A DNA stretch of 64,000 nucleotides from NCBI GenBank assembly GCA_003151625.1, contig PLYC01000021.1:80235-144234 (forward strand), in the 5' to 3' direction. This document shows positions 758-49,555 of the stretch, in pieces; positions within the stretch are counted from its first letter, which is position 1; each line of letters opens with the position of its first letter. The position numbers were made by a program, and so were the translations under genes. The notes under the pieces are model-generated. The model worked only from the letters and a program-made list of their open reading frames with translations. It did not search any database and was not told where the DNA came from. This DNA is from Candidatus Doudnabacteria bacterium. GTDB lineage: Bacteria > Patescibacteriota > Doudnabacteria > UBA920.

Positions 758-883
758 TCCCCTCCTTCTTTAAGGAGGGGGTGTCCCGTCGGATGACGGG
801 ACGGGGTGGTGATACTTATCAACGCCGATTCATTCACCGCCTCCCCCGCCTGCGGCGGGTACTCCTCCTTAAAGAAGGAGGAG
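758..883. repeat. Composite GC-rich palindromic element between rpoB and rpoC; its ends are mutually inverted hairpins
   Basis: cccctccttctttaaggagggg (758-780), gtcccgtcggatgacgggac (783-802), ccgcctgcggcgg (846-858), ctcctccttaaagaaggaggag (862-883). The right half cctcccccgcctgcggcgggtactcctcctt... recurs almost identically in frame inside polA at 34745-34795. The element itself creates the spurious ORFs 739..930 and 924..1115. Confidence 0.7.
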
Positions 884-935
884 AGACTGCATTACGATTC
901 GTGTTCATTCGTCTGCAGTATTTGTGTTAATTAGT

Positions 936-3900: not shown

Positions 3901-4433
3901 GCGCCGCGGTTAGGTATGATTTTCGCACCGTAATAATTTTTACCGCGCAAATTCTCGGCCGTAAAAAATACGCCCGGGGATTTAATAAGCTGGTTAACCA
4001 CAACGCGCTCCACGCCATTGATAATAAATGTGCCGCGCGGAGTCATTAACGGAAAATCTCCAAAATACACGTCTTGAGTCTTTACTTTGCCGGTTTGTTT
4101 GTTGACCAGCTTGGCGGAAACATACAGCGGGGCTTCGTAAGTGGTGTTTCTCTCGCGGGAAGTAAACTCGTCGTATTTGGACTTGTCAAAAAAGAAATCG
4201 CCAAAAAACATTTCCAGGTTTTTCCCGGTAAAGTCGCGAATCGGATTAATTTCTCCCAATAAGTCCTTAAGACCTTTTTCTACAAACCACTTATACGAAA
4301 TTAGCTGTACCTCTATTAAATTAGGCAGCAGCGCGGTTTCGTGGCTTGAGGTAAAAAACTTGCGTGGTGACAACTTGCTCTCGGGGAACTTAACCATGGC
4401 GGAGACGCCAACGGTTTTAGATTTAGTAGCCAT
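936..4433 (-). CDS. rpoB: DNA-directed RNA polymerase subunit beta
   Basis: 1165-aa ORF with a characteristic RpoB sequence throughout (e.g. ..[27 protein letters not shown].., ..[15 protein letters not shown]..). Confidence 0.97.
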
Positions 4434-5487
4434 TAAATAACCTAACTTAGGATTGCTGTTTTTTTAGAGACAACACTCCCTAGAGCCAAAAAACGCACTT
4501 TTTGGCTTATTTAAGGATAAAAACTAAATCCTATAAACCTCTTAACAAAAAGAGGTGTTACAATATTGAGCCATCCCCGGATTAAATCCGGGGAAAAAAT
4601 TGGCCAAAATTGTAAGACCGAAGAATATTCTACATCTTCTATCTCCCCGAAATCATGATTGAAGACGCAAAACATTCCCTTTTTCGCGTAAGCAAAAAAG
4701 GCCGATCCACAAAGGCTTATAGGCTTATTAAATTGTGCATATTAGGATTGTAGCAGTCAAGGAGAATTTGTCAAGTCCCAAACCGCAGGTTTGGGACTTA
4801 GCCCTGTACCGGAAGCCTTGGCGACTGGTACGGGGCAAGTCGATCATTTCATTTGTATCTCTATCCTACCACACTTACCCCCAAACTTCAAACAGTTAAT
4901 CCACAAGTTATTATTTTTCAGGCCACCAAGCTATTTTTCACCCCATCCCCTAACGAACGGGGCGGCAGGAAAAGAATAGAATGATGGCCTGGAAAATCGG
5001 GACGAACAAGGCGTAGTGCTTAGCCTGGTTCATCCCAAAGTGGTGCAATTTTTTTGTTTTTCCGGCGCCCCTGTTTGGTCAAGGCTGCCGGGCAAGTTTT
5101 GGAGAAGTTATTTTTTCCTCTTCTTCGAGTTTCTCCTTTCCAGCCGACGGCCTTGCTCAACGCCGAGCTGGACTGCCAGGTTGATTATGACCCACAGCAG
5201 ATCCCGACCCTCCTCCTCTTGTTGCTGGAGCATTTCGGGATCAAAAGTCCTGTAGGGCCGCGCACTCAACCTTCTCGCAAGGTTGGATTGAGTGGAGATA
5301 ACGTCCAACCCCTCATACACAAGGGTCTGGCGTTTTCTCCTTTGAAGCCGATAGCCCTGGCGGAGAGCCGACACCAAAGGGTCGACAATCCACTCAAGAA
5401 ACCTTACCGGCTGCTTTTTTGGCCACTCCACTTTTCTATTCACCTCCTTTATATGGTTTTTGTGGCCGGTTCCATCAACCGGTAATC

Positions 5488-5841
5488 TTATTTTTCGTCG
5501 GGAAGATTTTTACCCGACAACTCCCGAACATCGTCCGGGTCGTCGCCGAAGCAGTATTCCTCCGACCATACTTGGCGGTGAAGATCGGTCAGCGGTCCAA
5601 ACATCGGCCCGTCTGCCGAAACCAACAGCTCCATCGCCGTTTCAAAAGCGAGGAAGCCCTCCTGGCCGTACATCCGTACGGCCACGTACTCGCGTACCGT
5701 AGGTCCTCCCGCAAGACCGAGCGAAAAGCCGTTCACCAAAGCGGCCACCGCGTGGGCGAAGGCGAAGATACGGCCTTCGGAGGCCTCGGGGTTTCGTGCT
5801 CGGGCATATTCAAGTGCCCGCCCGAGAAAAAACTCCTCCAT
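5488..5841 (-). CDS. Hypothetical protein (GC-rich island)
   Basis: ORF 5488..5913. The likely true start is MEEFF at 5841, with a GGAAGAGG RBS about 10 nt upstream. It immediately follows the stop of the upstream ORF at 5844. No recognisable family. Confidence 0.45.
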   Translation of the reverse strand: MEEFFLGRALEYARARNPEASEGRIFAFAHAVAALVNGFSLGLAGGPTVREYVAVRMYGQEGFLAFETAMELLVSADGPMFGPLTDLHRQVWSEEYCFGDDPDDVRELSGKNLPDEK

Positions 5842-5843
5842 GG

Positions 5844-6473
5844 CTATTTTACCTCTTCCCCGCCTTGGCTGGGCGGAATTTCGACCGGCTGTTGGGGCTC
5901 CGAGGTGAGGCACAACAGCCCCACCATTGGCAGCCGCCGTAGTAGGCGAAAAACCACCTGTGACAGCTCGTCTACGAGGCTGATGACCGCCTCGATTTCG
6001 TCGTTGCTATACTCCGGCTTGGTGCCGGTCTTCTCCACGACGACCGAGAGGCCGCCCGCGGCGTTAAAGCCGTTGGAGTTGGGCGTAGCCGGGAAATCGC
6101 GGCCGTAGCCGCGATAGCCGATGTCCGTGGTGTCTACCAGGCCATCGACCGTATTTCCCGTGTCCGGGAAATTGCCTTCCGGTTCGGCCGGCTGCCACCC
6201 GCCCTGTTTGAGGAGGCCGACCACATGGTCGACCATTGCCGCCACGTCCCCATAGGGGCGGACGCGGCGGAATTCAAACCAGAAGCGGAGCTTCTGGTGG
6301 TCGGACAGCCCGGCTTGATCCGGGCATTCGGCCGTGGTCGCGTCGCCAATGAATGGCGCGGCCGGGCTGTCCACGTCTCCGTACAGACAGACGCGGACGC
6401 GATCCGTTCCCTGACTCTCGCCGCCGAAAGACAGGTCCAACGGCAGACCTTTAACGTAGGTTTGTGGTTCCAT
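5844..6473 (-). CDS. Hypothetical protein (GC-rich island)
   Basis: ORF 5844..6527. An internal start MEPQTYVKG at 6473 has AAAGGAG 11 nt upstream. Protein-like composition, unlike the R/S-rich opposite-strand ORFs. Confidence 0.45.
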   Translation of the reverse strand: MEPQTYVKGLPLDLSFGGESQGTDRVRVCLYGDVDSPAAPFIGDATTAECPDQAGLSDHQKLRFWFEFRRVRPYGDVAAMVDHVVGLLKQGGWQPAEPEGNFPDTGNTVDGLVDTTDIGYRGYGRDFPATPNSNGFNAAGGLSVVVEKTGTKPEYSNDEIEAVISLVDELSQVVFRLLRRLPMVGLLCLTSEPQQPVEIPPSQGGEEVK

Positions 6474-6720
6474 ACGTTTTTTACTCCTTTTAAAATTGGG
6501 TTTTCTGTTTCGTCCTTGCGGACTCATCAGCCTGGGACTTCTATACCCAAGGACAGAAAAATACTAAAAATTAAGCGTGTAGTGCAGGCCATCGGCCTGC
6601 TTTAAATAAAATCTTTGGGGAAAGGTTTGTGCAAAACCGTTTCCCCGTAGATTGAATGCGTTATACGTCTGCCCGTACAGTCTCGCCGTTTGTTGCTAAA
6701 ACGGTGACAAAATTCTGCCG

Positions 6721-7806
6721 CTACTTTGGCAACTTTGGAAGGCGGGTTTTGGCTTCAATCTCCCGTTCCCAGGAAATCATGTTGTTGCCGAAAAACTTCT
6801 CGGCAACTTCCTGGCGGGAAAGCCACTCGGCTCCCGGCTCGTCCTGTTGGGTGGAGTAAAGGACGAACGGGTGGCCGCAGACCGCCCGGAAAGCCTTCTC
6901 CACTTCCGCCTCCCCGACACGCGAACGCGTCGGGTGCGAGCCAACGTGTAGGTGGCGTTCCCAGAGCCCGACAATCCCTGGGTGGCCGGTGATTTGGAAA
7001 ATCCGGCCACCGACCCGAAAGTCGACGGTCAAACCCTTATCCACCAGGCACAACAACAGCCAAGGGATGGCCCACTTATGCTTTTCCGTGGGCAACGTCC
7101 ACGGACATTTCGTGGTCGCCGGCTCCTGCTCGTCCACTTCCTCGGAGCCCCACACGAACGCGTGGGTGTTCCAAAACTCCTCGGAGCAGGCAGTGGCCCG
7201 CTTGTCCCACGGCTGGGGCTCGGGCACCCCGCCAAAGAACGCGCCGAGGAGCAGGAACGTGTCCCCCTGCCGTTTCAAGACCACCGTTACCTCGGAGCTG
7301 GGCTCCGGCTGGCGGTTTTTGACGAACCGGCTCAAGCCTCGGTCTTTAGCGCCCAGCTTGCGCCGGGCATAAACCACAACCTCACCCTTCCCCTCCAAGT
7401 AGGGCCGGAACTCCTCCGGCGCCTCTTCGGCCAGGGGTTGAGCCGGCATGACCTCGTCGGGACGATGCTTCACCCAGGCTTTGGCGAAATGCTCGGCCTG
7501 GGTTTTTTTGGAGGCCTGCTCGTCCCGCCAAGCTCCCGCCCGTCGCTGGGCGTCGCGGATTTCGCCGTCACGCCTGGTGGCGACGACGTTGCTGTTGCCA
7601 ATCGGCCGACCAAAATCGACCGACTGGATAATCATCCCGACCTCACCAGCCGGGAATCCATCTTCTGGATTGTGCGCATTGACCCGCGCCAAAGCGCGGG
7701 CGAGGAACCGCGCGGTACCTTTGTACCGCTGTGATCCCTCGTTAGCCAGGACCGTCTCGCCGCTTGCGAGCGTCCCGACCTTCTTCATTTGTAGTGAAGA
7801 CGCCAT
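6721..7806 (-). CDS. Hypothetical 361-aa protein (GC-rich island)
   Basis: Long ORF with AAAGGAGAGGG RBS about 9 nt upstream of the ATG. No family confidently recognised. Confidence 0.5.
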   Translation of the reverse strand: MASSLQMKKVGTLASGETVLANEGSQRYKGTARFLARALARVNAHNPEDGFPAGEVGMIIQSVDFGRPIGNSNVVATRRDGEIRDAQRRAGAWRDEQASKKTQAEHFAKAWVKHRPDEVMPAQPLAEEAPEEFRPYLEGKGEVVVYARRKLGAKDRGLSRFVKNRQPEPSSEVTVVLKRQGDTFLLLGAFFGGVPEPQPWDKRATACSEEFWNTHAFVWGSEEVDEQEPATTKCPWTLPTEKHKWAIPWLLLCLVDKGLTVDFRVGGRIFQITGHPGIVGLWERHLHVGSHPTRSRVGEAEVEKAFRAVCGHPFVLYSTQQDEPGAEWLSRQEVAEKFFGNNMISWEREIEAKTRLPKLPK

Positions 7807-7920
7807 TGTTTTGCCCTCTCCTTTTGGGCTATCTATTTACTAGAGATTCTTCGCTCCGCTCAGAATGACGCCGAAAAAAACCTAACAAACACATAGCTCA
7901 AAAGAAAAAAGCCTCCTCCC

Positions 7921-8025
7921 CCGCCAAGCCGTAGCCTGTGGTCCACAGCCGGGCGGGGGAAGAGAGGAACAAAAAGTTGTGCAGACTTTTGTTCCCCTCG
8001 ACTTAAGTGCAAATGGCGATTAAGG
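7921..8025. repeat. Intergenic repeat copy A, homologous to 12570-12690
   Basis: Shares gccgtagcct, aaaagttgtgca[ga]acttt and cccc..c.t.agtgcaa blocks in the same order with the MoxR/vWA spacer. Contains nested hairpins (ccccgcc...ggcgggg, ggaacaaaaag...cttttgttcc). Confidence 0.55.
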
Positions 8026-10013
8026 CTCGCCGTGGGCCTCACCGGAGGTGGTGAATTTTTGTGTTTGGTATTTTTTCTCCGGTGGCAGCTATAGTACGAA
8101 TCCGTTCCTTTAGGCCAACAAGAGCACAAAGGCTCCCGTCGAAACGTATTCGTCTGCTTTGTCTTTCCCGCGCGCTTGCCGGCGCGGCCTTAAATAGGAG
8201 GTTTTACCTAACTTCAGGCTTCCTCCCGGCGCGATTCTCTTTTTTAGCATCCTGTTTTGTGACTTGTGGAAAATTGGTGATTGGTTAGGATGTTTCAAGA
8301 ACCGCGATTCGGCGTCCGTCTTGCCTGGATGGGCCAAAGCTGGTGGCTCTGGCAAAGACTAATCCCTGTGGCGAGCAGGAAAATTGTTTCCCCTCCTTAA
8401 ACAACCTGCAAACCGGCGTTTACAGGCCGCCTAATTCAGGCCAGGCAAAAATAAACTGCGACCTATCTTGGTGTTTGGTGAAAGATAGTGTTTGGTAATT
8501 TTTAGGTCGCAGGCGGATGGATATTAAAACCCGATAATTGCTTCGGGCTTCACTTAAACATTTAGTTCAATCCACCCCGGCCCTAAGCCAAGGCTGTTTA
8601 AGTTTTTGCGGCAGCCGTTGCCGACTTTTCCATCCTGACACTCCTTGGGGGCTTTTCGGCTGTTTAGTGGGTATATTTAGTAGCCAAAAAACCTTAACCC
8701 CTTAGAGCCGCTGTTGTGTATCTCCCAAACCGCCAGCTGGCAGCTTGGGTCTCGTGTAGCGTTTTTGATGAGCGAAAGAAGGTAAAACGCCTTCCACCGG
8801 GCCCTTAGCCCATAAAGATAAGTGGCGAATGTCGCCGCCAAACCTTTCCTTTCGCTGTTTGTTCTTCCCTCATTCTGCCGGGATTGTTTGCCGACAAACC
8901 TCTTGGGGCGCGCCTGCCCATTACCTTTCGGCAATAAACACAGTACAAACTTAAAACTGCTTGACGTGGGGTATTGTATATTAGCGCTTCTTACTGTGAC
9001 AATTTTTTACCCAATAGGAGATTACTCTCCGCACAGAGAAGCGGCTGGATTTTCTGTTGTGCTCACCTGTAGTACTCTCCAGCAAAACCTAAGATGAGCA
9101 TTAACCAGTTTGTAATTTGTATTTTGGATTCCACACTCTGGTAAAAAGAACCCAAAACAGGCAGTTGTATTTAGAGCGTTGGTAAAAACAATTAGCCAAA
9201 ATCTTACCAACGCCGGTGCTGCTTGTTAGCGGTAAATCAGGTGCAGTTTATTGAAACCTGCCTTACCGACTTCTTGCTCTAATGACAAAATACCGTGACA
9301 TCCAGCTGGCAATGTCCTGTAAGTACCCTGCCACCTACAAATTTAATGAGCGCCTGAAGCAGAAGCTCATTAAACCAGCCGCGTTGCTTAAACCTTTTCC
9401 GCCCTCAGCGCGAAAGCCCTGCGGAAAAGAAAAATTTTTCTGAATAGCCAGGCTCAAATGAATTTTTAAACATTTGAGCCGCCAGCGCCACTGGCCCCTC
9501 TAGCCAAACAAAATCAGCCGATGCAGTTTCTGGCGCGTCCGGTTTACTGATTCACCGGACCTTGTGCGATGGGAACACAAGAATTTTGTAACCCACCTTG
9601 CGCCTTTTTAACGCTCTTTACCGATTCTTAACATGCTTGCCTTACGGCAAGGGAACATAGGTCTATCTATCCTAAAACCTATGCCTTTCATGCTCAGCCA
9701 CCCCCGATGCGCCTTCCCGGTCATCTCGAGAGAAAATGAACCGCTTGTCAGGGTTTAAACCCTCTACGGTGCCCTTATCATTTTTGTCTTTCTCCTCTTC
9801 GAAAAATCCAAACCAACCAAGAACCTCTTCCCGGCTTATTTGGGAGTAACGTGATGTTTTACGTTCCTCTCAAAATTTTATAGTTTATACCTTGCCGACT
9901 CGTCCGCCATAGCTTTAGCGAATTTGGATTTATCGGCCAAAACATAACTAGAAAACTTTGAGAGGAAGAGGAAGCCTAGGCGGTGTGCAATCGCGGGGCT
10001 TCCTCTTTTAGTG

Positions 10014-10454
10014 CTATTTGCCAAGGGCTGCTAAAAATCCCTTGGCCTTGTTGTCGTCCCGCCAGCTCCGCCACTCGGCGGGGACATGGGCGGCTTTTCG
10101 GCCGCGGTACTCAAGCGCCGCCCCTGGATAACCGGAACTGCGGCCGCTTGTGGTGTCCCACATGGACACCGTCAGGTCACCAATAGTGACCTTTTTTGCC
10201 GAGGACGGAACGTCGCTCGGCCAGCCGGGTTTCAGGCAGTTGTCATTCCAACCACCCGTCCCCCGGAAAAGTTGCCGGAGGAGGTTGCGCGGGATTTTCA
10301 CCCGCTCTTTTTTGCCGCGAATGCGGCGGGCGGCGGCCAAAGTGCGCAGGGTGTGCTTTCCCTGGAACTTGGCTATCACCAGCTCAATCGACGGCTTTTC
10401 AATCTCGGCCACAAAGGTTGTGACCGAGTCGATCGGTTTCTTCACGTCGGCCAT
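10014..10454 (-). CDS. Hypothetical 146-aa protein, last gene of the Alba-MoxR-vWA operon
   Basis: Start MADVKK at 10454 with AAGAGGAG RBS. Sits 85 nt downstream of the vWA gene on the same strand. GC-rich. Confidence 0.5.
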   Translation of the reverse strand: MADVKKPIDSVTTFVAEIEKPSIELVIAKFQGKHTLRTLAAARRIRGKKERVKIPRNLLRQLFRGTGGWNDNCLKPGWPSDVPSSAKKVTIGDLTVSMWDTTSGRSSGYPGAALEYRGRKAAHVPAEWRSWRDDNKAKGFLAALGK

Positions 10455-10538
10455 TTTCTCTCCTCTTATGGACCGAAACGGATGGTGTTTTATTATTTGG
10501 TAACCATCCCCCAAACCCTTGTCCGGATTCTCACCGAA

Positions 10539-20467: not shown

Positions 20468-21823
20468 TCAATTGTTTCCGCCAAAGGCGGAGCCGCCTTT
20501 GGCGGTAATTGTTAATTGTTGCAAGACTTCTTTGACTACCCGAACTTCATCCCAATCAACCCTTTTGTTTCCGGGCAAAATCAAAAACTGCTCACTGCCC
20601 TTGCCGGTAATTAAAACGAGATCGTTTTCCCTTGCAAAAGATAAAGCCCGAAAAATGGCCTGCTGGCGATCCAAAATTATTTCGTATCGCGACTTTCTTA
20701 ATTTAAAACTGTTAATGCCGTCTTCGATATTTTTGGCAATTTCCCTGGGATCGGAATCGTAAATATCGTCGTTGGTAACAATAATAATGTCCGCATACTG
20801 CGCGGAGGCGTGGCCAAACACAAATCTTTTGCCGACGTCGCGGTGCCCGCCGGTACTGCCAAAAACGTGGATTAGCCGGTTATGCGGCAATTGCGCCGCT
20901 GATTCCAAAGCGGCTTTAAATGAAGCCGGCTCACAGCCATAATCCACAATTATTTGAAGTCCCCGATTATTTGGGACATTTTCCATCCTGCCCCGGATCC
21001 CGCTGAATTTTTTTAGAGCTCCGGCCGCTTTTTCCAAATCTACTTCCAGCATATTCGCGCAGGCAACCGCCAAGGCGGCATTCTGCGCGTTAAAATTACC
21101 AGGCAAATTTAAGGTAAATGTCGTATTCTCAATTTTAAATTCGGTCTGGCTGCCTTGTTTGGTTAAATCGACAAAAAAAACTTTTTGCGCATCGCTGACT
21201 TTAAGCCGCCGAAAACTCACCCCGAATTTTTTGTCGGCTGGAAAACTCAAAAAATACCCTGCCATGGGATCGTCTAAATTTATGCCGATAACTTTTTGCG
21301 GAAAAAAAGGTTTTTTCCTGTTCTTGCCGACTGCCGCAAACAGCTTGCCTTTAGCCTGCTGATAATTACCAAAACTGCCGTGCGCGTCTATATGAGCGCG
21401 CGAGAGATTTGTAAACACGGCCATATCAAAATTAATCCCCCAGTGGCGGTTTTGAGCCAGCCCCTCGGAAGTGCATTCTATAATTGCCACCCTGCACTTA
21501 TTTATTGCCATGGCGTGCAGCTGCCTCTGTAATTTAATTTCATTGGGCATTGAAAGCCCGTGCTTGTTAATAAAACTTTTTTGTCCGTCAAAAAAATCCA
21601 CGGTTGTAATATACCCTGTCTTAATTCCGGAATTATTTAAAATATGCGCCAATATGGCGGTAGTGGTGGACTTTCCGGCCGTCCCCGTTATGCCAATAAC
21701 AATAAGTTTGCTACTGGGCCGGTCATAATAAATATTGGCATCCCAAGCCAGCATGCCGTGGTACCAGGGTCGAATAAATTTTAGCAGATCCTCGGGAATT
21801 AATTTTTTTAATAAATTCTTCAT
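20468..21823 (-). CDS. Mur ligase family (MurE/MurF-like UDP-N-acetylmuramoyl-peptide ligase)
   Basis: GITGTAGKSTT P-loop in the Mur ligase central domain. C-terminal ..TAKGGSAFGGNN is encoded by the palindromic element ccgccaaaggcggagccgcctttggcgg (20478-20507). Confidence 0.8.
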   Translation of the reverse strand: MKNLLKKLIPEDLLKFIRPWYHGMLAWDANIYYDRPSSKLIVIGITGTAGKSTTTAILAHILNNSGIKTGYITTVDFFDGQKSFINKHGLSMPNEIKLQRQLHAMAINKCRVAIIECTSEGLAQNRHWGINFDMAVFTNLSRAHIDAHGSFGNYQQAKGKLFAAVGKNRKKPFFPQKVIGINLDDPMAGYFLSFPADKKFGVSFRRLKVSDAQKVFFVDLTKQGSQTEFKIENTTFTLNLPGNFNAQNAALAVACANMLEVDLEKAAGALKKFSGIRGRMENVPNNRGLQIIVDYGCEPASFKAALESAAQLPHNRLIHVFGSTGGHRDVGKRFVFGHASAQYADIIIVTNDDIYDSDPREIAKNIEDGINSFKLRKSRYEIILDRQQAIFRALSFARENDLVLITGKGSEQFLILPGNKRVDWDEVRVVKEVLQQLTITAKGGSAFGGNN

Positions 21824-27435: not shown

Positions 27436-27480
27436 ATTAAATAGCACGATTTTAACGGCCGTTAAAATCGTGCTATTTTA
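27436..27480. terminator. Bidirectional hairpin terminator between uvrB (+) and the TrmB paralog (-)
   Basis: Perfect palindrome atagcacgattttaacggccgttaaaatcgtgctat flanked by T/A runs. Confidence 0.6.
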
Positions 27481-29530: not shown

Positions 29531-31438
29531 CTAGTGACTAGCAGACCCACTCCCTGCATCGGAGAGAGGGAAGGCCGCAGAGGTTGCAAAGCTTTCTAAA
29601 AATTTTACAATACGCTGGTCCAATAAAATGTCAGCCGGGTAAATTGGACGCTTTAGAGTCAGACCGACTAGGGTGCGGCATCGGGAAAGCGCGACGTAAA
29701 GCTGGCCATGTGCAAAAGTGCCGGAGGCTAAATCTATATAAACTTTATCAAAAGTTTTGCCTTGGGCTTTGTGAATAGTTACCGCCCAGGCTAATTTAAA
29801 CGGATATTGAGTATAGGTACCCATGGTTTTACTCTTTACCGTTTCGGTATATTTATCAAGCGTAAAACTGTACATTTCCCAAGTATATGGCTCAACGTTT
29901 ACAGTCTCGCCGGTTTCGAGTTCAACAATGATGGTATCGGGAGCATTGTTTTCTTCAATAGAAAAATCAGTGGTAAGGGGTTCCGATTCAGAGGCAGCAA
30001 ATGGATCGGCAGTATCGTAACTCCAACCACCCCGTCCCGCTCCGCGGGCCACCCCTCCTTGAAAAGGAGGGGAAACCACACCTAGATTAAATTTTTCTAT
30101 ACCAATAATTTTCCCCATTGTGCCATTGACCCAGCGCTTGCGCTGGTCGTTATTGAGCATCATAATTTGCGCGCCAACTTTTATTTGTAAGTGTAAATCC
30201 GTGGGAAGTTCGCGATCTTGAAAACTGCCGCGCGCGCTACCGGTATAAACCTTTGGCTCCGACTCAATACGCTCCAAAAAATAATTATTTACCCAACTTG
30301 CCCGTTTGTTGGTCGGAGTTAAATAAATGGAAAATCTCTCAAAGGAAAATTCTTTTTCTTGATCTTGGGCGCGCTGGTTTAATATTTGCAAATGGTCGGT
30401 ACTCGCGGCATTATTGCGAACCGCGTTCAAGATTTCCAAAAATACCCTCTCCTTTTGTCTGTACATTGTCTGAAGTTCAATGAATTTAAATTGTGAATTT
30501 TTAAAACTTCGGGAATCAAAAAAATAAGGGCTCGTATATTCTTTAATTAAAGCGCTAACCGAACCAAAATCCCGCTCAACCGGCGGAAGTTGATACAAGT
30601 CGCCGATAAATATCATTTGCAAACCGCCAAACGGCATATCCGACGCTGGTCCGTTTAGACGCAAAAATTTATCAACGAAATCCAAGAGGTCGGCTCTGAC
30701 CATGGAAATTTCGTCTATGATTATGGTGTTTAATTTTAAAAGCAGTTTTCTTTTTGGGGAAAATGGGGCCAACTTTTTAACCTTTTGCATGGTTATGTCC
30801 GGACCAAAAGCGCAAAAAGAATGAATTGTTTGGCCTTCCACATTTAAGGCAGCAACGCCTGTCGGAGCCAGAACAACAATATTTTTCTCCGTGGTGTGGC
30901 GAAAATGCTGTAAGAGAGTAGATTTCCCTGTACCAGCCTCACCGGTTAAAAATAAATTCTGTTGGGTATTTTGCATTAAATCCAAGGCTCTTTGAGCCTC
31001 GGGATTGTCGGAAAAATTGAATTGTGGCGGCATCGTATCGCCCGGCTTAACAGAACCACCCCGCCTACCTTCTAAGGAGGCCAAGGCATCGGAAGATAGG
31101 TAGGAAGACACCCTTCCTTCGTGAAGAGGGGAAACGGCGCTCCCGCTGTCCTTTTTGCTTTTTCTTTCTTCATCACGCTTTTTTTGGGCATCGTAATCCC
31201 AACCCGCAATATCAGGAAAATATTTAGCCAAGCGGCCTCGGATGCCGTTTGGTTTACGGCCAAATTTTTCGGCTGTTGCCTCCAAAAATATTTCAAAGCT
31301 TTCCGATCCTTCCGTTTTATGGCTATCATAAACGTCCAAAAGCGCCGTATCCTCCTCTTTTGTCCAGCGCATGAAGGCCTTCGGATGCGTTTTACGCAAT
31401 TCTTCAATATTGCTTATTTTTTGGGCTTGTTTGTCCAT
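29531..31438 (-). CDS. Pif1/RecD-like ATP-dependent DNA helicase with N-terminal extension
   Basis: Motif I LTGEAGTGKSTLL. Motif II IIIDEISMV. ..LQMIFIGDLYQLPPV.. In-frame palindromic insert at 30027-30077 coding GVVSPPFQGGVARGAGRGG. Confidence 0.8.
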   Translation of the reverse strand: MDKQAQKISNIEELRKTHPKAFMRWTKEEDTALLDVYDSHKTEGSESFEIFLEATAEKFGRKPNGIRGRLAKYFPDIAGWDYDAQKKRDEERKSKKDSGSAVSPLHEGRVSSYLSSDALASLEGRRGGSVKPGDTMPPQFNFSDNPEAQRALDLMQNTQQNLFLTGEAGTGKSTLLQHFRHTTEKNIVVLAPTGVAALNVEGQTIHSFCAFGPDITMQKVKKLAPFSPKRKLLLKLNTIIIDEISMVRADLLDFVDKFLRLNGPASDMPFGGLQMIFIGDLYQLPPVERDFGSVSALIKEYTSPYFFDSRSFKNSQFKFIELQTMYRQKERVFLEILNAVRNNAASTDHLQILNQRAQDQEKEFSFERFSIYLTPTNKRASWVNNYFLERIESEPKVYTGSARGSFQDRELPTDLHLQIKVGAQIMMLNNDQRKRWVNGTMGKIIGIEKFNLGVVSPPFQGGVARGAGRGGWSYDTADPFAASESEPLTTDFSIEENNAPDTIIVELETGETVNVEPYTWEMYSFTLDKYTETVKSKTMGTYTQYPFKLAWAVTIHKAQGKTFDKVYIDLASGTFAHGQLYVALSRCRTLVGLTLKRPIYPADILLDQRIVKFLESFATSAAFPLSDAGSGSASH

Positions 31439-32880: not shown

Positions 32881-33171
32881 AAATTCTCCTTTTGTTTTCC
32901 GCCGTAGGCGGATCCGCCTTTGGCGGAAAGCATACGAGAGCCCCTCGTATTGGCTTATTTATAAGCCTTTTAAGTTTGTTCCAAAATGGAACATACTGAA
33001 CTATTTCCATTTTGGAAACAGTTGATATTTATATAGTATACAATCGTTCACCTTATGTCAATCCCTTTAAAGATAAGGGTAAAATAAATTTCCGCCCGAG
33101 TTATCCACTGCTTTGTCCCGCCATGGCGGGACTTCGCAGTGCAAGCACGCCATACCGTTTTCTCGCAAAAT

Positions 33172-33837
33172 TTAAAATTCAAAAGTTTTAAGTTTTTCTT
33201 TAACTGGCGCAATGGCCTCCTCTGTAATATCCCCCGCCTTCATTTTACTGCTCCTAAAAATTTGTCTTTCAATTTCCCGTAAGCCGTTCTCAAACTCCGA
33301 CCGTGCCTCATCGTTGCCGCCCATCATATGGAATTTATTATTGTACCTGACCCGCAAGTCCGCCAGTCTTTCTTCCAAGCTAATAATTCCTCTTGGCCCG
33401 ACGCGCATATCGCTGTACGCGCAAATTTTTTTACCAAAATCTTCTGTCTCCGCATTAGTTCTACCATTATTGAAGCCAATACAGTCTATAAGCTCAATAA
33501 CTCTACCTGACGCGTCTGCTTCTTTTGCAATTATTAAAGCGGCCTGATGTTCGTCTGTACCATACTTTTGCCGGTATTCTTCCTTAACTTTTTCCCAAAA
33601 CTCCACATCAATATCTAAATTCATCACTGATTTGGTTTTGCGTAAATCAAACTTCAAAATATTCCCCATATCATGAAGCAAGCAAGCCAAAACTATATAC
33701 TCCCTCTCCCTCCGGGAGAGGGCTGGGGTGAGGGTTATATGCGCGCAGATTAAATCCGCCACCCCAGCCACCCTTAACTGGTGTTCGGCCAACTGCGGCA
33801 TTGTTTGATATTTTTTGTAAATTTCTAAAATGTTCAT
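33172..33837 (-). CDS. HD-domain phosphohydrolase
   Basis: ..LACLLHDMGN.. HD motif. In-frame GC insert at 33700-33748 coding TLTPALSRRERE. Confidence 0.6.
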   Translation of the reverse strand: MNILEIYKKYQTMPQLAEHQLRVAGVADLICAHITLTPALSRREREYIVLACLLHDMGNILKFDLRKTKSVMNLDIDVEFWEKVKEEYRQKYGTDEHQAALIIAKEADASGRVIELIDCIGFNNGRTNAETEDFGKKICAYSDMRVGPRGIISLEERLADLRVRYNNKFHMMGGNDEARSEFENGLREIERQIFRSSKMKAGDITEEAIAPVKEKLKTFEF

Positions 33838-34288: not shown

Positions 34289-34593
34289 CTACTTTCAAAC
34301 AAAATTATATACAAAATTATCATTAGAATATTAAACCAAATACAATCTTTATTATAAATTTCATTTGCCTCTTTTCTTAAAACAACGACTGAAGATTTAA
34401 TTAAAGGAGGGAAATGTGCAATGGCGGGAACTAAAATAATCAACCAACTCCTTTTAGGGAAATACCAACCGGCAAAGACTAATAAAAACATTGACACAGA
34501 ACATATAAACCAAATTGCGTGGTTGGCATTTTTAAACCAACCTCTTTTTATAAACCATCCAATCAAAATCCCAGCTTCTCCATCTCCCCCCAA
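34285..34593 (-). CDS. Small membrane protein (3 predicted TM)
   Basis: Hydrophobic 102-aa ORF overlapping adjacent gene ends. Confidence 0.4.
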   Translation of the reverse strand: MGGDGEAGILIGWFIKRGWFKNANHAIWFICSVSMFLLVFAGWYFPKRSWLIILVPAIAHFPPLIKSSVVVLRKEANEIYNKDCIWFNILMIILYIILFESR

Positions 34594-37385
34594 TTATCTC
34601 CCGCCTTAACTTCCACTTTAATCGGAACGGAAAGTTTAATGGCTTCTTCCATCATTGGAATTAACTTTTTTGCCCAATATTCCACTTTGTCCTCCCGAAC
34701 TTCAAATACAAGTTCGTCGTGGACTTGTAAGAGCATTCGAATTTCACCACCTCCCCCGCCTGTGGCGGGTACTCCTCCTTTGAAAGGAGGAGAGCTCCGC
34801 AGCATTTCCTTGTGGATATTGATCATGGCTACCTTAATTACATCAGCGGCCAAAGACTGGATGGGAAAATTCACGGCCGCGCGTTCTGCCGCGGCACGGA
34901 TAAAGAATTGGGAGGATTTTATTTCCGGGAATTTGCGCATCCGGCCAAGCTCGTTGCGGACAAAGGCTTCTTCGTTGACCTGCAATTTAATTTGCTCAAT
35001 ATAATTTTCCACGGCCGGATAAGCGGCAAAATATTTTGCTATAAATTCTTTGGCCTCCGCGCGGCTTACTTCGCCAATGCGCGATGACAGCCCAAACGAC
35101 GACAGCCCGTATAAAATACCAAAGTTGATTGTCTTGGCGTCGCGCCTCATATCGGCCGTAACTTTGTCGTCCGTCACCCCAAAAATACTGACCGCGGTGT
35201 TGGTGTGGATGTCTTCATTATTCTTAAACACCCGGAGCATATTTTCATCTTTGGCCAAATGCGCCACAATGCGCAATTCAATTTGGCTGTAGTCAATAGA
35301 TAAAAGCTTATAGCCCGCCTCCGCCACAAACGCCTGCCTAATTTTACTCCCCAAGCCTTGCCCCCGAATTGGAATATTCTGCAAGTTCGGGTCGGTGGAA
35401 CTAAGTCTACCCGTTGCCGCAATGGTTTGGTTATAGTTAGTATGAATCCGTCCGGTTTTTTTATTTACCAATTCCGGCAGCGCCAGCAAATAAGTTGATT
35501 GCAGCTTAGCCAATTCCCTATATTCCAAAATTTTATCAATTACCGGATGCTGGCCTTTCATTTTTTCCAGCTCGCCGGCGGCCGTAGACAGGCCGGTTTT
35601 GGTTTTACGATTTTGCACCGGCTCTAGTTTCATTTTTTCAAATAAAACCTCCTTCATCTGCTTTGGAGAATTCAAATTAAATTCCTCGCCGGTTAATTTA
35701 TAAATTTTACTTTCCAAATCCTTAATATCAATTTCTGCTTCCGCGGATAACTTGTTTAAAAATTTGCTGTCCAGTTTAATGCCATTTAACTCCATGCTTG
35801 CCAGCACTTCCACCAGCGGCATTTCAATGTCGTAAAAAACTTTTTCCAAACCTTCTTTTTTCAATTGGGGTTCAAAAAGTTCTTTAAGACGTAAAGTCAT
35901 GTCCACGTCTTCACAGCAGTACCAGCTCACTTTAGCCGGCTCCCCTTTATCCATTGTTATCTGATTTTTTCCTTTACCTATTAAATCCTCTATTGGCTGC
36001 ATTTGATAGCCGAGCTCGTTAAAAGCCAGGGCGTCTAAACCATGCTGGCGCGTGCCGGCATTTAGGAGATAGGAGGCTATCATGGTATCAAAATCAGTTG
36101 TAAGTTGTAAGTTGTAAGTTGTAAAAACCTCCAAGTCGTATTTTATGTTGTGGCCGATTTTTTTGATTTTAACATCGGATAATATTTTTTTTAATTCTTC
36201 AGATGCCAAAAATAAATCCGCGGCTACATAATACGCTACCCCTGGCTTTACACAAAGTCCCACCCCTACTAATTTTGCGTTTATTGTGTCGAGACTGGTA
36301 GTTTCCGTGTCGATGGTTATTTCTTTTGCCGCTGACAAACCCTTCAAAATCTTTTCCAATTTTTCTTCCGTGTCTATAAACTGGTAATCCTGTTTGCCAA
36401 TACTCGCAGCGCCCTCCGCCTTATTTGTAGGATTTTCTGACAATAATTCTTCATTAATCGCCCCTGCACCCTCACCCCTGACCCCTTTTTCCTTTGGCAG
36501 CTTCCCAATCAGCGTCCTAAACTCCAATTCCTGAAACAACTTCACTGTACCCTGCAAATGCGCGGCATCAAAATCATAAGCAACAATATTTATTTCCAAA
36601 GGAACTTTGCAGTCAATTTGTGAAAGCTGATAAGACATTATCGCTTCTTTTTCCTGTGACTTAAGCAATTCCAAAATCCTCGGCTTAATTTTACTGCCGG
36701 TTAAGCCTTCTTTAATCGCTGTATATAATCCATCAAACGATTTAAAATCTTGAATTAATTCCGAAGCGGTTTTCTCGCCTATTCCCTTTACCCCCGGAAT
36801 ATTATCGGAAGGGTCGCCGCGCAAAGCCTTATAGCTTACCATTTGGTCTGGGTTAAGCCCGTAGCGCGCTCGAACGGCTTTGGCGTCGTAAATTACCACA
36901 TCGGTAATACCTTTGCGCATGGTATAAACTTTTATAACGTGATTGACTAATTGCAAGGTGTCTAAGTCGCCTGTCACAATAATTACTTCTGCTTCCGGGT
37001 CTTTTTTATGCAAAGTTAAAGCCAGTGTACCAAGACAATCATCCGCCTCAAAACCCTGTTTTTCAAAAATAAGAATATTTAACGCGCGCACCACTTCTTT
37101 AACGCGCGGAATTTGGTCGTAAAGTTCCTGGTCGGCCTTAACGCGCGTGCCTTTATATTCCTTATACTGCACGTGCCTAAAAGTCGGGCCGGCCAAATCA
37201 AAGGTGCAGGCAATATGCGTGGGCTTAATGTCTGCAATGGCTTTAAGCAAAATCAAGCTAAAACCATAAACCGCGTTGGTCTGCTCCCCGCTTTTGGTGT
37301 TTAAAACCGGAATAGCGTGATACCCGCGGTGAATTAGCGCGTTGCCGTCTATTAACATATAGCGCGATTGTTTTGGAGGCGTCAT
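34563..37385 (-). CDS. polA: DNA polymerase I
   Basis: 5'-3' exonuclease N-terminus (..LIDGNALIHRGYHA..). Polymerase motifs A/B/C (..LSIDYSQIELRIVAHL.., ..RRDAKTINFGILYG.., ..QVHDELVFEV). Two in-frame GC inserts (34745-34795 and 36460-36487) and a 7-bp x4 tandem repeat at 36096-36123. Confidence 0.95.
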   Translation of the reverse strand: MTPPKQSRYMLIDGNALIHRGYHAIPVLNTKSGEQTNAVYGFSLILLKAIADIKPTHIACTFDLAGPTFRHVQYKEYKGTRVKADQELYDQIPRVKEVVRALNILIFEKQGFEADDCLGTLALTLHKKDPEAEVIIVTGDLDTLQLVNHVIKVYTMRKGITDVVIYDAKAVRARYGLNPDQMVSYKALRGDPSDNIPGVKGIGEKTASELIQDFKSFDGLYTAIKEGLTGSKIKPRILELLKSQEKEAIMSYQLSQIDCKVPLEINIVAYDFDAAHLQGTVKLFQELEFRTLIGKLPKEKGVRGEGAGAINEELLSENPTNKAEGAASIGKQDYQFIDTEEKLEKILKGLSAAKEITIDTETTSLDTINAKLVGVGLCVKPGVAYYVAADLFLASEELKKILSDVKIKKIGHNIKYDLEVFTTYNLQLTTDFDTMIASYLLNAGTRQHGLDALAFNELGYQMQPIEDLIGKGKNQITMDKGEPAKVSWYCCEDVDMTLRLKELFEPQLKKEGLEKVFYDIEMPLVEVLASMELNGIKLDSKFLNKLSAEAEIDIKDLESKIYKLTGEEFNLNSPKQMKEVLFEKMKLEPVQNRKTKTGLSTAAGELEKMKGQHPVIDKILEYRELAKLQSTYLLALPELVNKKTGRIHTNYNQTIAATGRLSSTDPNLQNIPIRGQGLGSKIRQAFVAEAGYKLLSIDYSQIELRIVAHLAKDENMLRVFKNNEDIHTNTAVSIFGVTDDKVTADMRRDAKTINFGILYGLSSFGLSSRIGEVSRAEAKEFIAKYFAAYPAVENYIEQIKLQVNEEAFVRNELGRMRKFPEIKSSQFFIRAAAERAAVNFPIQSLAADVIKVAMINIHKEMLRSSPPFKGGVPATGGGGGEIRMLLQVHDELVFEVREDKVEYWAKKLIPMMEEAIKLSVPIKVEVKAGDNWGEMEKLGF

Positions 37386-49484: not shown

Positions 49485-49555
49485 TTACGGATATACAGAT
49501 TACTGCAGTAATCTGTATATCCGTATGGTTTATCCGTAATCCGTAGATGAACTTA
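49485..49555. repeat. Left flank direct repeat of the GxxExxY cassette (contains the perfect palindrome acggatatacagattactgcagtaatctgtatatccgt)
   Basis: Shares ttacggatatac.gat.ctgca and atccgtaatccgtagatgRact with the right flank at 49935-50035. Confidence 0.6.

What the first reader, a model, noticed from the sequence alone, without database searches (positions are those of the whole stretch)
34745..34795. Palindromic GC element inserted in frame in DNA polymerase I immediately before catalytic motif C
The sequence cctcccccgcctgtggcgggtactcctcctttgaaaggaggag (34745-34795) is near-identical to the right half of the intergenic composite element at 841-883. It contains the CCGCCtgtGGCGG and CTCCTCCTTtgAAAGGAGGAG hairpins.

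On the coding (minus) strand it encodes SSPPFKGGVPATGGGGGE. It is inserted between ..INIHKEML and RMLLQVHDELVFEV (motif C). E. coli Pol I has only about 10 residues in that position (AWLQAEQPRV).

So a mobile-looking palindromic element has expanded a loop next to the catalytic aspartates of an essential enzyme without breaking the frame. This recalls Rickettsia palindromic elements that insert in frame into genes.
Basis: partly seen in the sequence, partly recalled or inferred. Interest (0 to 1): 0.8.

Follow-up and report, generated by a model that had tools for sequence, protein, structure and literature searches.

The report
Triplex-forming DNA repeat inside polA
A roughly 50-base copy of a known class of bacterial repeat, in which one DNA strand can fold into a hairpin plus a third strand, sits in frame in a disordered surface loop of the DNA polymerase I gene of a Doudnabacteria (candidate phyla radiation) genome; in this lineage such repeats lie mostly inside genes, which I did not find described for this class.

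Summary
Window 34743-34795 lies in polA (ORF 34563-37385, minus strand). It repeats intergenic 833-885: 36/38 ungapped, then a second hairpin with a 1-nt indel. It adds 14 residues between a long helix and the motif C strand.

The element is more than a palindrome. On the coding strand it reads:
- pyrimidine arm CTCCTCCTT
- loop
- purine arm AAGGAGGAG
- an 18-nt loop holding a GC hairpin
- tail GAGGTGGTG, the mirror image of the purine arm (G opposite G, T/A opposite A)

This is the code of a class II purine-motif intrastrand DNA triplex, the published BoxC / PIT / TMECO repeats (Holder 2015).

The window holds six such elements, four of them inside ORFs. One (33702-33734) matches the TMECO pattern exactly.

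In Doudnabacteria loci, 31 of 36 elements are inside genes; in other low-GC genomes, 16 of 97. Four related polA genes carry four different such elements in this same loop.

At an orthologous helicase site, all three blocks co-vary through synonymous changes. This indicates nucleic-acid-level constraint or gene conversion.

Triplex formation and the copying mechanism are inferred, not shown.

The parts
34743..34795 (-). Whole repeat copy inside polA (segment shared with 833-885). It encodes S865-E882, SSPPFKGGVPATGGGGGE, of the 940-aa PolA.
34784..34792 (-). Pyrimidine arm CTCCTCCTT (5' block on the coding strand)
34772..34780 (-). Purine arm AAGGAGGAG, Watson-Crick partner of the pyrimidine arm (loop TCA between them)
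34755..34769 (-). GC hairpin CCCGCC-ACA-GGCGGG, which fills most of the 18-nt second loop (long-loop variant)
34745..34753 (-). G/T-rich tail GAGGTGGTG, mirror image of the purine arm (8 of 9 positions obey G*G, A*A or T*A); the putative reverse-Hoogsteen third strand
34563..37385 (-). polA (DNA polymerase I, 940 aa), host gene; catalytic motifs intact
833..885 (-). Intergenic sister copy, about 95% identical; tail GAGGCGGTG, 7 of 9 triplets. It is the right half of an inverted doublet just 3' of rpoB (936-4433, minus strand).
759..811 (+). Left half of the doublet, other subtype: CCCCTCCTT cttt AAGGAGGGG [GC hairpin] GGGGTGGTG
30025..30072 (-). In-frame copy in a PIF1-type helicase (ORF 29531-31438, minus strand): CCCCTCCTT ttc AAGGAGGGG [hairpin] GGGGTGGTT; peptide SPPFQGGVARGAGRGGW
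33702..33734 (+). Short-loop copy that matches the published TMECO pattern exactly. It is antisense and in frame in an HD-domain gene (33172-33837, minus strand); peptide TLTPALSRRERE.
15167..15192 (+). Weak or partial member (CCCTCCC ctc GGGAGGG ga GGGAGCG) in the N-terminal tail of a TrmB-like regulator ORF
36384..36500 (-). polA inter-domain linker with a probable decayed relic (GGGGTCAGGGGTGAGGGTGCAGGGG, no pyrimidine arm). Relatives carry intact elements at this site.

Best explanation
The polA insert is a copy of a dispersed repeat of the intrastrand-triplex-motif class, known as BoxC / PIT / TMECO (class II, purine motif). It is a variant whose second loop is long and carries its own GC hairpin.

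Shown:
- The three-block code (pyrimidine arm, complementary purine arm, mirror-image G/T tail) is present here and in five other places in the window.
- The code is strongly enriched over controls.
- The code is kept across at least 27 different arm sequences.
- The code is maintained even at synonymous codon positions inside genes.
- In Doudnabacteria these elements lie mostly within ORFs, in variable loops and linkers.
- The pre-motif C loop of polA has received four different elements in four related genomes.

Inferred:
- When the G-rich strand is single-stranded (replication, repair or recombination), it folds into a hairpin whose purine arm binds the tail by reverse-Hoogsteen pairing. 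The GC hairpin closes the long connecting loop.
- New copies arise by an unidentified copy or gene-conversion process that acts on this structure.
- Copies persist in genes when they are in frame and fall in disordered, low-constraint loops, where they are read as Ser/Pro/Gly/Arg/Glu-rich peptides.
- For PolA the peptide is most likely a passenger with no catalytic role.
For: Identity and enrichment:
- The family pattern hits 4 window loci and 0 in 100 shuffles.
- Strict and relaxed scans find 6 window loci and 0 in 20 and 10 shuffles.
- In sequence not chosen by the pattern, 26 of 90 pyrimidine/purine hairpins have a perfect mirrored tail. Controls give 1 of 90 (shuffled downstream) and 1 of 90 (upstream).
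- In that same set, opposite G the tail has G in 202 of 206 cases. Opposite A it has T 47, A 36, other 5. There are 27 distinct triples.

Known class:
- Window 33702-33734 fits the TMECO pattern exactly (pattern from PMC4666352).
- Inverted doublets of two different types occur here (759-885), as reported in E. coli.

Long-loop variant:
- Loop 2 length is bimodal, at 3 nt or 13-23 nt.
- Among 246 long loops there are 202 distinct sequences. A perfect stem of at least 5 bp occurs in 128 of 246, against 14 of 246 after shuffling.

Genic location:
- 31 of 36 elements are inside genes in Doudnabacteria loci.
- 16 of 97 are inside long ORFs in other genomes below 46% GC.

Hot spot:
- Window, L202, L203 and L246 carry four different elements at the same polA loop.
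- The closest element-free relatives show an empty loop.

Nucleic-acid-level constraint:
- At one helicase site, two genomes have TCC CCT CCT / GGA GGG GTG / CGG GGT GGT. Three genomes have TCT CCT CCT / GGA GGA GTA / GGA GGT GGT.
- Third codon positions are identical in all five orthologues in 5 of 7 element codons, against 16 of 116 elsewhere (p = 0.0016).

Permissive site:
- AlphaFold gives mean pLDDT 87.9. The insert is coil 865-881, with pLDDT below 50 at 869-878.
Against: - No experiment shows that this sequence forms a triplex.
- Even for E. coli TMECO, the triplex was seen only in single-stranded oligonucleotides and not in vivo.
- The 18-nt second loop exceeds the loop limits used in published searches (1-6 or 0-10 nt).
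- One of the nine triplets is a mismatch.
- The G-rich blocks could instead form a G-quadruplex.
- No copying mechanism, target-site duplication or trans-acting enzyme was found.
- The Doudnabacteria sample is centred on polA and helicase neighbourhoods, and several sites are orthologous, so counts are not independent.
- Gene calls for the non-Doudnabacteria comparison are ORF-length heuristics.
- Near-identical subfamily copies occur in unrelated GC-rich viral contigs. The 95% match between the two window copies is therefore not proof of a recent event within this genome.
Confidence: 0.75

Rival explanations
1. It is a transposase-mobilised palindromic element of the RPE, MITE or REP/REPIN kind that transposed into polA.
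For: - Near-identical copies lie at two unrelated loci.
- Close relatives differ in presence or absence.
- An inverted doublet resembles a REPIN.
- The in-frame outcome resembles RPEs.
Against: - No terminal inverted repeats or target-site duplication were found.
- There is no GTAG/CGTC tag.
- The size is about 50 nt; by recollection, RPEs are roughly 100-150 bp.
- No transposase or Y1 domain appeared in 30 window ORFs.
- The conserved feature is a mirror repeat, which these families lack.
- The literature finds no link between the class and mobile elements.
Confidence: 0.1
2. The functional fold is a G-quadruplex or a hairpin/G-quadruplex switch formed by the purine arm plus the tail, not a triplex.
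For: - Related archaeal and E. coli repeats interconvert between hairpin, triplex and G4 in vitro.
- The short form GGGAGAGGG-CTG-GGGTGAGGG has four G3 tracts.
Against: - Non-G positions of the tail mirror the A positions of the arm as A or T in 83 of 88 cases. A G4 does not require this.
- Several variants (GGGAGAAG / GATGAGGG, AAAGGGGG / GGGGGATT) lack four proper G tracts.
Confidence: 0.15
3. It acts as RNA: strong in-ORF hairpins that pause ribosomes at domain boundaries, stabilise mRNA or terminate transcription.
For: - Hairpins are stable.
- Sense orientation is somewhat commoner in genes (21 against 10).
- Many intergenic copies in other phyla are followed by T runs on the complementary strand.
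Against: - Both orientations occur in genes.
- An RNA hairpin does not explain the mirrored tail.
- Purine-motif triplexes are reported not to form in RNA, and PIT elements showed no promoter or terminator activity.
- No Rfam family matches.
Confidence: 0.1
4. The insert is an adaptive protein feature of PolA, a functional Gly-rich loop near the active site, and the DNA repeat is incidental.
For: It is in frame, and the gene is intact with conserved motifs.
Against: - It is present in very few close relatives, each with a different sequence.
- Model confidence is low.
- The same DNA is repeated in an intergenic region.
- Constraint is visible at synonymous sites rather than at the peptide level.
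Confidence: 0.04
5. It is an assembly or chimera artefact.
For: The source is a metagenome assembly.
Against: - The frame is preserved.
- The same protein is on record in two sources.
- Independent assemblies from other samples carry analogous elements at the same loop.
Confidence: 0.01

Closest known systems
TMECO / BoxC / PIT elements (class II purine-motif intrastrand triplex repeats; Hoyne & Maher 2000, 2002; Holder et al. 2015, PMC4666352)
   Same: - Same three-block code and order: pyrimidine arm, purine arm, mirror G/T tail.
- About 9-nt blocks and a 3-6-nt first loop.
- Singles and inverted doublets of two different types both occur.
- No strand bias and no link to neighbouring gene function.
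- One window copy fits the published pattern exactly.
   Different: - The polA copy has an 18-nt second loop containing a GC hairpin, where the published form has 3 nt.
- The arm sequence is CTCCTCCTT rather than CCCTCNCCC.
- The host is a Patescibacteria lineage rather than Proteobacteria.
- Copies here are mostly in frame inside genes, whereas E. coli TMECO is reported as always intergenic.
Rickettsia palindromic elements (RPE)
   Same: Both are dispersed repeats found in frame inside conserved, essential genes, where they add a peptide to a tolerant surface region without destroying function.
   Different: - No sequence relationship to RPEs was established; none was tested for here.
- By recollection, RPEs are about two to three times longer and plainly palindromic, with no mirror third block.
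- RPEs are known from a different phylum.
REP / REPIN elements mobilised by RAYT transposases
   Same: Both are short GC-rich hairpin repeats, often in inverted doublets, and abundant in some genomes.
   Different: - There is no GTAG/CGTC tag.
- No RAYT was seen in the window.
- REPs are extragenic by definition and have no mirror tail.
Archaeal repetitive PQS / triplex motifs (PMC8044849) and the E. coli G4-hairpin-duplex switch (Kaplan 2016, as cited there)
   Same: Both are G-rich mirror blocks next to a complementary C-rich block, and can adopt hairpin, antiparallel triplex or G4 folds in vitro.
   Different: - The block order is opposite (class I).
- All copies are reported as intergenic.
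- No embedded loop hairpin is described.

Membership tests
Intrastrand triplex motif, class II purine type (TMECO / PIT / BoxC) | 5' homopyrimidine block followed by a complementary homopurine block (hairpin, first loop 3-6 nt) | tested here: met
   CTCCTCCTT-TCA-AAGGAGGAG is 9 of 9 Watson-Crick and folds at -16 kcal/mol as DNA.
Intrastrand triplex motif, class II purine type (TMECO / PIT / BoxC) | 3' third block antiparallel to the purine block, with G opposite G and A or T opposite A (at most one mismatch) | tested here: met
   GAGGTGGTG against the mirrored purine arm GAGGAGGAA gives 8 of 9. Across the family, G*G is 202 of 206 and A/T opposite A is 83 of 88.
Intrastrand triplex motif, class II purine type (TMECO / PIT / BoxC) | Short second loop (3 nt in TMECO; 1-6 nt in ITxF; 0-10 nt in Hoyne & Maher) | tested here: not met
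   Loop 2 is 18 nt in polA. It contains its own 6-bp hairpin, which would bring its ends together. Long loops with hairpins are a recurrent second mode. The window copy 33702-33734 does meet this feature.
Intrastrand triplex motif, class II purine type (TMECO / PIT / BoxC) | TMECO consensus CCCTCNCCC N3-6 GGGNGAGGG N3 GGGNGAGGG | tested here: not met
   The polA copy has different arm sequences. Only 33702-33734 matches in the window.
Intrastrand triplex motif, class II purine type (TMECO / PIT / BoxC) | The single strand actually forms a triplex (CD / NMR) | not testable with these tools
   Shown in vitro for TMECO only.
Intrastrand triplex motif, class II purine type (TMECO / PIT / BoxC) | Intergenic location (reported as invariable in E. 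coli MG1655) | tested here: not met
   The polA, helicase and HD-gene copies are inside ORFs. In Doudnabacteria loci 31 of 36 are genic.
Rickettsia palindromic elements | Element of roughly 100-150 bp (size recalled, not checked here), homologous to an RPE family | tested here: not met
   Length was the only feature measured: the element is 48-53 nt. Homology to RPE families was not tested.
Rickettsia palindromic elements | In-frame insertion in conserved genes at tolerant sites | tested here: met
MITE | Terminal inverted repeats plus target-site duplication | tested here: inconclusive
   No direct repeat flanks the copy. The empty-site alleles are too diverged to fix the boundaries.
REP / REPIN-RAYT | GTAG or CGTC tag next to the hairpin; extragenic; RAYT gene in the genome | tested here: not met
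   There is no such tag at either end and copies are genic. No Y1 transposase domain appeared in 30 window ORFs. The rest of the genome was not searched.
Curated RNA families (Rfam 15) | Match at the gathering threshold | tested here: not met
   There were 0 matches in the window. Only chance-level hits below threshold appeared at 700-950.

The most novel reading that the evidence does not exclude
In Doudnabacteria, and probably in other Patescibacteria, triplex-code repeats are not passive debris. They would be a nucleic-acid signal kept by selection inside coding sequence.
- All three blocks co-vary through synonymous changes at orthologous sites.
- The same protein loops are re-occupied by different family members.

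This would imply a genome-wide single-strand DNA function (for example in replication, priming, repair or recombination), or a self-propagating, structure-directed conversion process. That process would overlay the genetic code and repeatedly remodel loops of core enzymes such as PolA.
Probability: 0.25. Interest if true: 0.85.

Novelty: new variant of a known kind. Interest (0 to 1): 0.6.

Why it matters
Intrastrand triplex repeats have been known for about 25 years, yet they have no assigned function or mechanism of spread, and they are described as intergenic.

This case adds four things:
- a lineage in which they sit mainly inside genes;
- a second architecture (a hairpin in the connecting loop) found across many phyla and in viral contigs;
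- orthologous coding sites where the three-block code is preserved by coordinated synonymous changes;
- a practical note: such repeats are a source of lineage-specific loop insertions in core candidate-phyla-radiation proteins, and can be mistaken for protein-level innovations.

The coding sites give a natural test bed. Protein-level and DNA-level constraints can be separated there, so the question of whether the triplex code is under selection becomes directly testable from sequence data.

Tried and rejected
- Rfam at gathering and at permissive thresholds found nothing relevant.
- A literature search by raw sequence strings returned only unrelated primer hits. A search for Patescibacteria in-frame repeats found nothing relevant.
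- The idea that every variant of the polA loop is a palindromic insertion was rejected. Most relatives carry short tandem repeats there (8-nt AAATCAGC x4, 7-nt units, CTACAAC x4), which is a different process.
- A neighbour-joining tree was built to decide between one ancestral and several independent insertions. Each element-bearing polA pairs with an element-free one, but the tree is star-like and the same loop alleles recur in different clades. I do not rely on it.
- The search for a target-site duplication or exact boundaries failed because the loop is too diverged.
- The explanation that the elements are tolerated because they lack stop codons is only weakly supported: 4.45 against 3.83 open frames out of 6.
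- The transposase search in the window was negative for 30 ORFs.
It did not return the source genome, so I could not make a whole-genome census of this organism.
- The ORF-span heuristic for coding status is unreliable in GC-rich genomes. I restricted it to genomes below 46% GC.
Full report
**1. The observation**

It lies inside a 940-aa minus-strand ORF (34563-37385). That ORF is a complete DNA polymerase I with 5'-nuclease, 3'-5' exonuclease and polymerase domains.

The match to the intergenic site is real:
- A 31-mer from the insert finds only 840-870 (one mismatch) and itself, with no matches in 100 shuffles.
- The repeat finder pairs 833-870 with 34743-34780 at 95%.
- The shared segment is 52 nt in polA and 53 nt in the intergenic copy.

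The organism is a Candidatus Doudnabacteria (Patescibacteria). The contig is a 246,769-bp ENA metagenome assembly.

**2. It is an insertion**

- From ADxIK to QVHDEL there are 46 residues here. There are 30-34 in about 50 diverse PolA loci and up to 38 in close relatives.
- Klenow fragment aligns with a 13-residue gap opposite the insert.
- Among 114 aligned Doudnabacteria-type PolA, only this protein, P0002 and P0006 have a repeat-like peptide in this loop. A further relative, L246, also has one.
- Motifs A, B and C are intact.
- An AlphaFold model (mean pLDDT 87.9) places the insert as coil 865-881. It lies between helix 827-864 and strand 882-888, with pLDDT below 50 at 869-878.
- The catalytic H889-D890 sit at the far end of that strand. 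The insert is therefore adjacent to the active site in sequence rather than in space; this last step is inferred from strand geometry.

**3. What the element is**

A census of GC-rich hairpins showed similar stems elsewhere in the window, including inside other ORFs. On the polA coding strand the blocks are:

| Block | Sequence |
|---|---|
| Pyrimidine arm | CTCCTCCTT |
| Loop 1 | TCA |
| Purine arm | AAGGAGGAG |
| Loop 2 (18 nt, with hairpin) | TA-CCCGCC-ACA-GGCGGG-G |
| Tail | GAGGTGGTG |

The tail is the purine arm read backwards, with A kept or replaced by T.

The same relation holds with different sequences:
- CCCCTCCTT / AAGGAGGGG / GGGGTGGTT in a helicase gene
- CCCTCTCCC / GGGAGAGGG / GGGTGAGGG in an HD gene
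- CCCCTCTCCT / AGGAGAGGGG / GGGGAGAGGT in a relative's polA

I tested this on DNA that had not been chosen with the pattern (the window plus polA loci of many bacteria):
- 26 of 90 pyrimidine/purine hairpins have a perfect mirrored tail within 32 nt.
- Controls give 1 of 90 (shuffled downstream sequence) and 1 of 90 (upstream sequence).
- Opposite G the tail has G in 202 of 206 cases.
- Opposite A it has T 47 times, A 36 times and another base 5 times.
- There are 27 distinct triples.

This is the pairing code of an antiparallel purine-motif triple helix: G*G-C, A*A-T, T*A-T.

**4. This class is already known**

A literature search found Holder et al. 2015 (PMC4666352). It builds on the BoxC repeats and on the 'potential intrastrand triplex' elements of Hoyne and Maher. 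The paper reports:
- It describes class II intrastrand triplex motifs and the E. coli type, CCCTCNCCC N3-6 GGGNGAGGG N3 GGGNGAGGG.
- It found 3610 copies in 262 proteobacterial genomes.
- In E. coli MG1655 the copies are always intergenic, show no strand bias, and are sometimes in inverted pairs of two different types.
- The copies are not linked to transposons, phages or plasmids, and have no promoter or terminator activity.
- They form a triplex as a single strand in vitro, but this was not detected in vivo.
- They are associated with local sequence instability.

The link to the window is direct:
- Window 33702-33734 matches that pattern exactly, with none expected by chance.
- The intergenic composite at 759-885, just 3' of rpoB, is an inverted pair of two different subtypes. 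This is the arrangement reported in E. coli.

A related paper describes archaeal repeats that switch between hairpin, triplex and G-quadruplex in vitro, again all intergenic. Rfam has no matching family.

**5. What differs from the published class: the second loop**

The polA copy has a long second loop with its own hairpin.
- Loop 2 length is bimodal, at 3 nt or 13-23 nt.
- The 246 long loops have 202 different sequences.
- 128 of 246 contain a perfect stem of at least 5 bp, against 14 of 246 after shuffling.

- Acidobacteriota
- Bacteroidota
- Gamma- and Betaproteobacteria
- Nitrospirota
- Chlamydiota
- Patescibacteria

It also found 40 stretches in viral contigs. Some of those copies are nearly identical to the polA copy, and in those GC-rich phage contigs they lie between genes.

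**6. What differs from the published class: location inside genes**

The window has six elements, with none in shuffles. Four are inside ORFs:

| Host ORF | Orientation | Peptide |
|---|---|---|
| polA | sense | SSPPFKGGVPATGGGGGE |
| PIF1-type helicase | sense | SPPFQGGVARGAGRGGW |
| HD-domain protein | antisense | TLTPALSRRERE |
| TrmB-like regulator | sense | weak copy |

- Across Doudnabacteria loci, 31 of 36 strict elements are inside genes.
- In other genomes below 46% GC, only 16 of 97 lie in long ORFs.
- Related polA genes carry up to five elements each. These cluster in the linker before the 3'-5' exonuclease domain, after residue 741, and in the pre-motif C loop.
- The window's own linker has a decayed relic.
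- The helicase loop that hosts an element is 10-95 residues long in 111 orthologues, so it is a low-constraint linker.
- Sense-oriented copies are read in frames that give Ser/Pro then Gly/Arg/Glu, never the Leu-rich frame.

**7. History at the polA loop**

Four related genomes have four different elements at the same place. All are in sense orientation and directly before (E/D)I(R/K)MLLQVHDE:

| Locus | Element |
|---|---|
| Window | CTCCTCCTT with loop hairpin |
| L202 | CCCCTCCT / AGGAGGGG / GGGGAGGT |
| L203 | CCCCTCTCCT / AGGAGAGGGG / GGGGAGAGGT |
| L246 | CCCCCTCTTT / AAAGAGGGGG / GGGGGAGTTA |

- The nearest relatives by PolA sequence lack any element there, but the tree is too poorly resolved to count events.
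- No target-site duplication is visible.

The data fit either repeated insertion at a hot spot or replacement of an older copy by gene conversion. I cannot separate the two.

**8. Evidence for constraint at the nucleic-acid level**

The helicase element is shared by five orthologues (71-74% protein identity to the window helicase).

| Genomes | Pyrimidine block | Purine block | Tail block |
|---|---|---|---|
| Two (W, L202) | TCC CCT CCT | GGA GGG GTG | CGG GGT GGT |
| Three (L246, L247, L248) | TCT CCT CCT | GGA GGA GTA | GGA GGT GGT |

- All three blocks change together, mostly through synonymous substitutions.
- The loop hairpin has a different sequence in each genome but always pairs.
- Among four-fold codons with a conserved amino acid, 16 of 116 share the third base in all five genes. 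Inside the element 5 of 7 do, and the other two split by subtype (Fisher p = 0.0016).

This points either to selection on the DNA (or RNA) structure or to concerted evolution with other copies. It argues against a neutral passenger peptide evolving freely.

**9. Mechanism and verdict**

Shown:
- membership of the triplex-code repeat class by sequence logic
- enrichment over controls
- genic location in this lineage
- a permissive structural position in PolA
- co-variation at synonymous sites

Inferred:
- folding of the G-rich single strand into hairpin plus third strand, with the loop hairpin as connector
- an unknown, structure-directed copy or conversion process
- persistence of copies that are in frame and lie in disordered loops
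- no catalytic role for the PolA peptide

The published association with local instability fits the extreme variability of the host loops, but I did not test it.

The analogy to Rickettsia palindromic elements holds for the outcome, not for the family.

Classification: a new variant, in a new genomic context, of a known kind of repeat.

Noticed in passing
L122:8780-8840, L124, L125, L151, L204 (polA pre-motif C loop of relatives): In relatives without the triplex-type element, the same polA loop holds short tandem repeats. Their unit length is not a multiple of three: AAATCAGC x4 (read as KSANQQIS), GCAACTC, CTACAAC x4. The overall loop length still keeps the frame. L202, L203 and L246 have both the 8-mer array and a triplex-type element side by side.
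   Followed up: partly
window 20475-20508, 32893-32932, 33106-33141, 662-677; L247 about 2410-2440: There is a second hairpin family built on CCGCC-N3-GGCGG, often as back-to-back doublets. One overlaps the last codons of a Mur ligase gene (TAKGGSAFGGNN*). In L247 a doublet is nested inside loop 1 of the helicase triplex-type element. The stem resembles the loop hairpin of the polA copy.
   Followed up: partly
L206-L245 (IMG/VR viral contigs), e.g. L207 and L211: The long-loop triplex-type repeat occurs in 40 viral-contig stretches, with up to 3-4 copies per 12-27 kb contig of 57-62% GC. The copies lie between large ORFs, and some are almost identical to the polA copy. Holder et al. reported no association of the E. 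coli type with phages.
   Followed up: partly
window about 4500-14200: A stretch of 57-59% GC sits in an otherwise 40-47% GC window. It encodes an AAA_5 (MoxR-like) ATPase and a weak VWA-domain protein. About 2.1 kb (7850-10000) has no ORF over 91 aa and no Rfam or tRNA hit. A 52-nt repeat lies at 7966-8017 and 12643-12694. It may be an acquired island.
   Followed up: partly
PolA alignment A2, after query residue 230: Fourteen related PolA carry a different inserted peptide in the 5'-nuclease region. Many are of the form (A/I)G(L/V)(K/E)IPNDKYQIPNKFQI, which suggests yet another repeat-derived insertion.
   Followed up: no
L204:12954-13682 (HD gene of a relative) and window 33172-33837: The loop just before the HD motif of the HD-domain protein is also a recurrent insertion site. 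The window and L203 have a TMECO-type element there, L204 has a longer different insert, and L205 has none.
   Followed up: partly
window 38889-43895 and 44091-47816: Two very large minus-strand ORFs (1668 and 1241 aa) contain internal diverged repeats (families D1-D6). Precomputed Pfam hits on the larger product include PKD, CARDB and He_PIG, so they are probably surface proteins.
   Followed up: no
window 27439-27478 and 49486-49525: Perfect AT-rich palindromes of 40 nt (22-nt overlapping arms at 27439-27478; two adjacent 20-nt arms at 49486-49525) lie in intergenic DNA. They are unrelated to the GC-rich elements.
   Followed up: no
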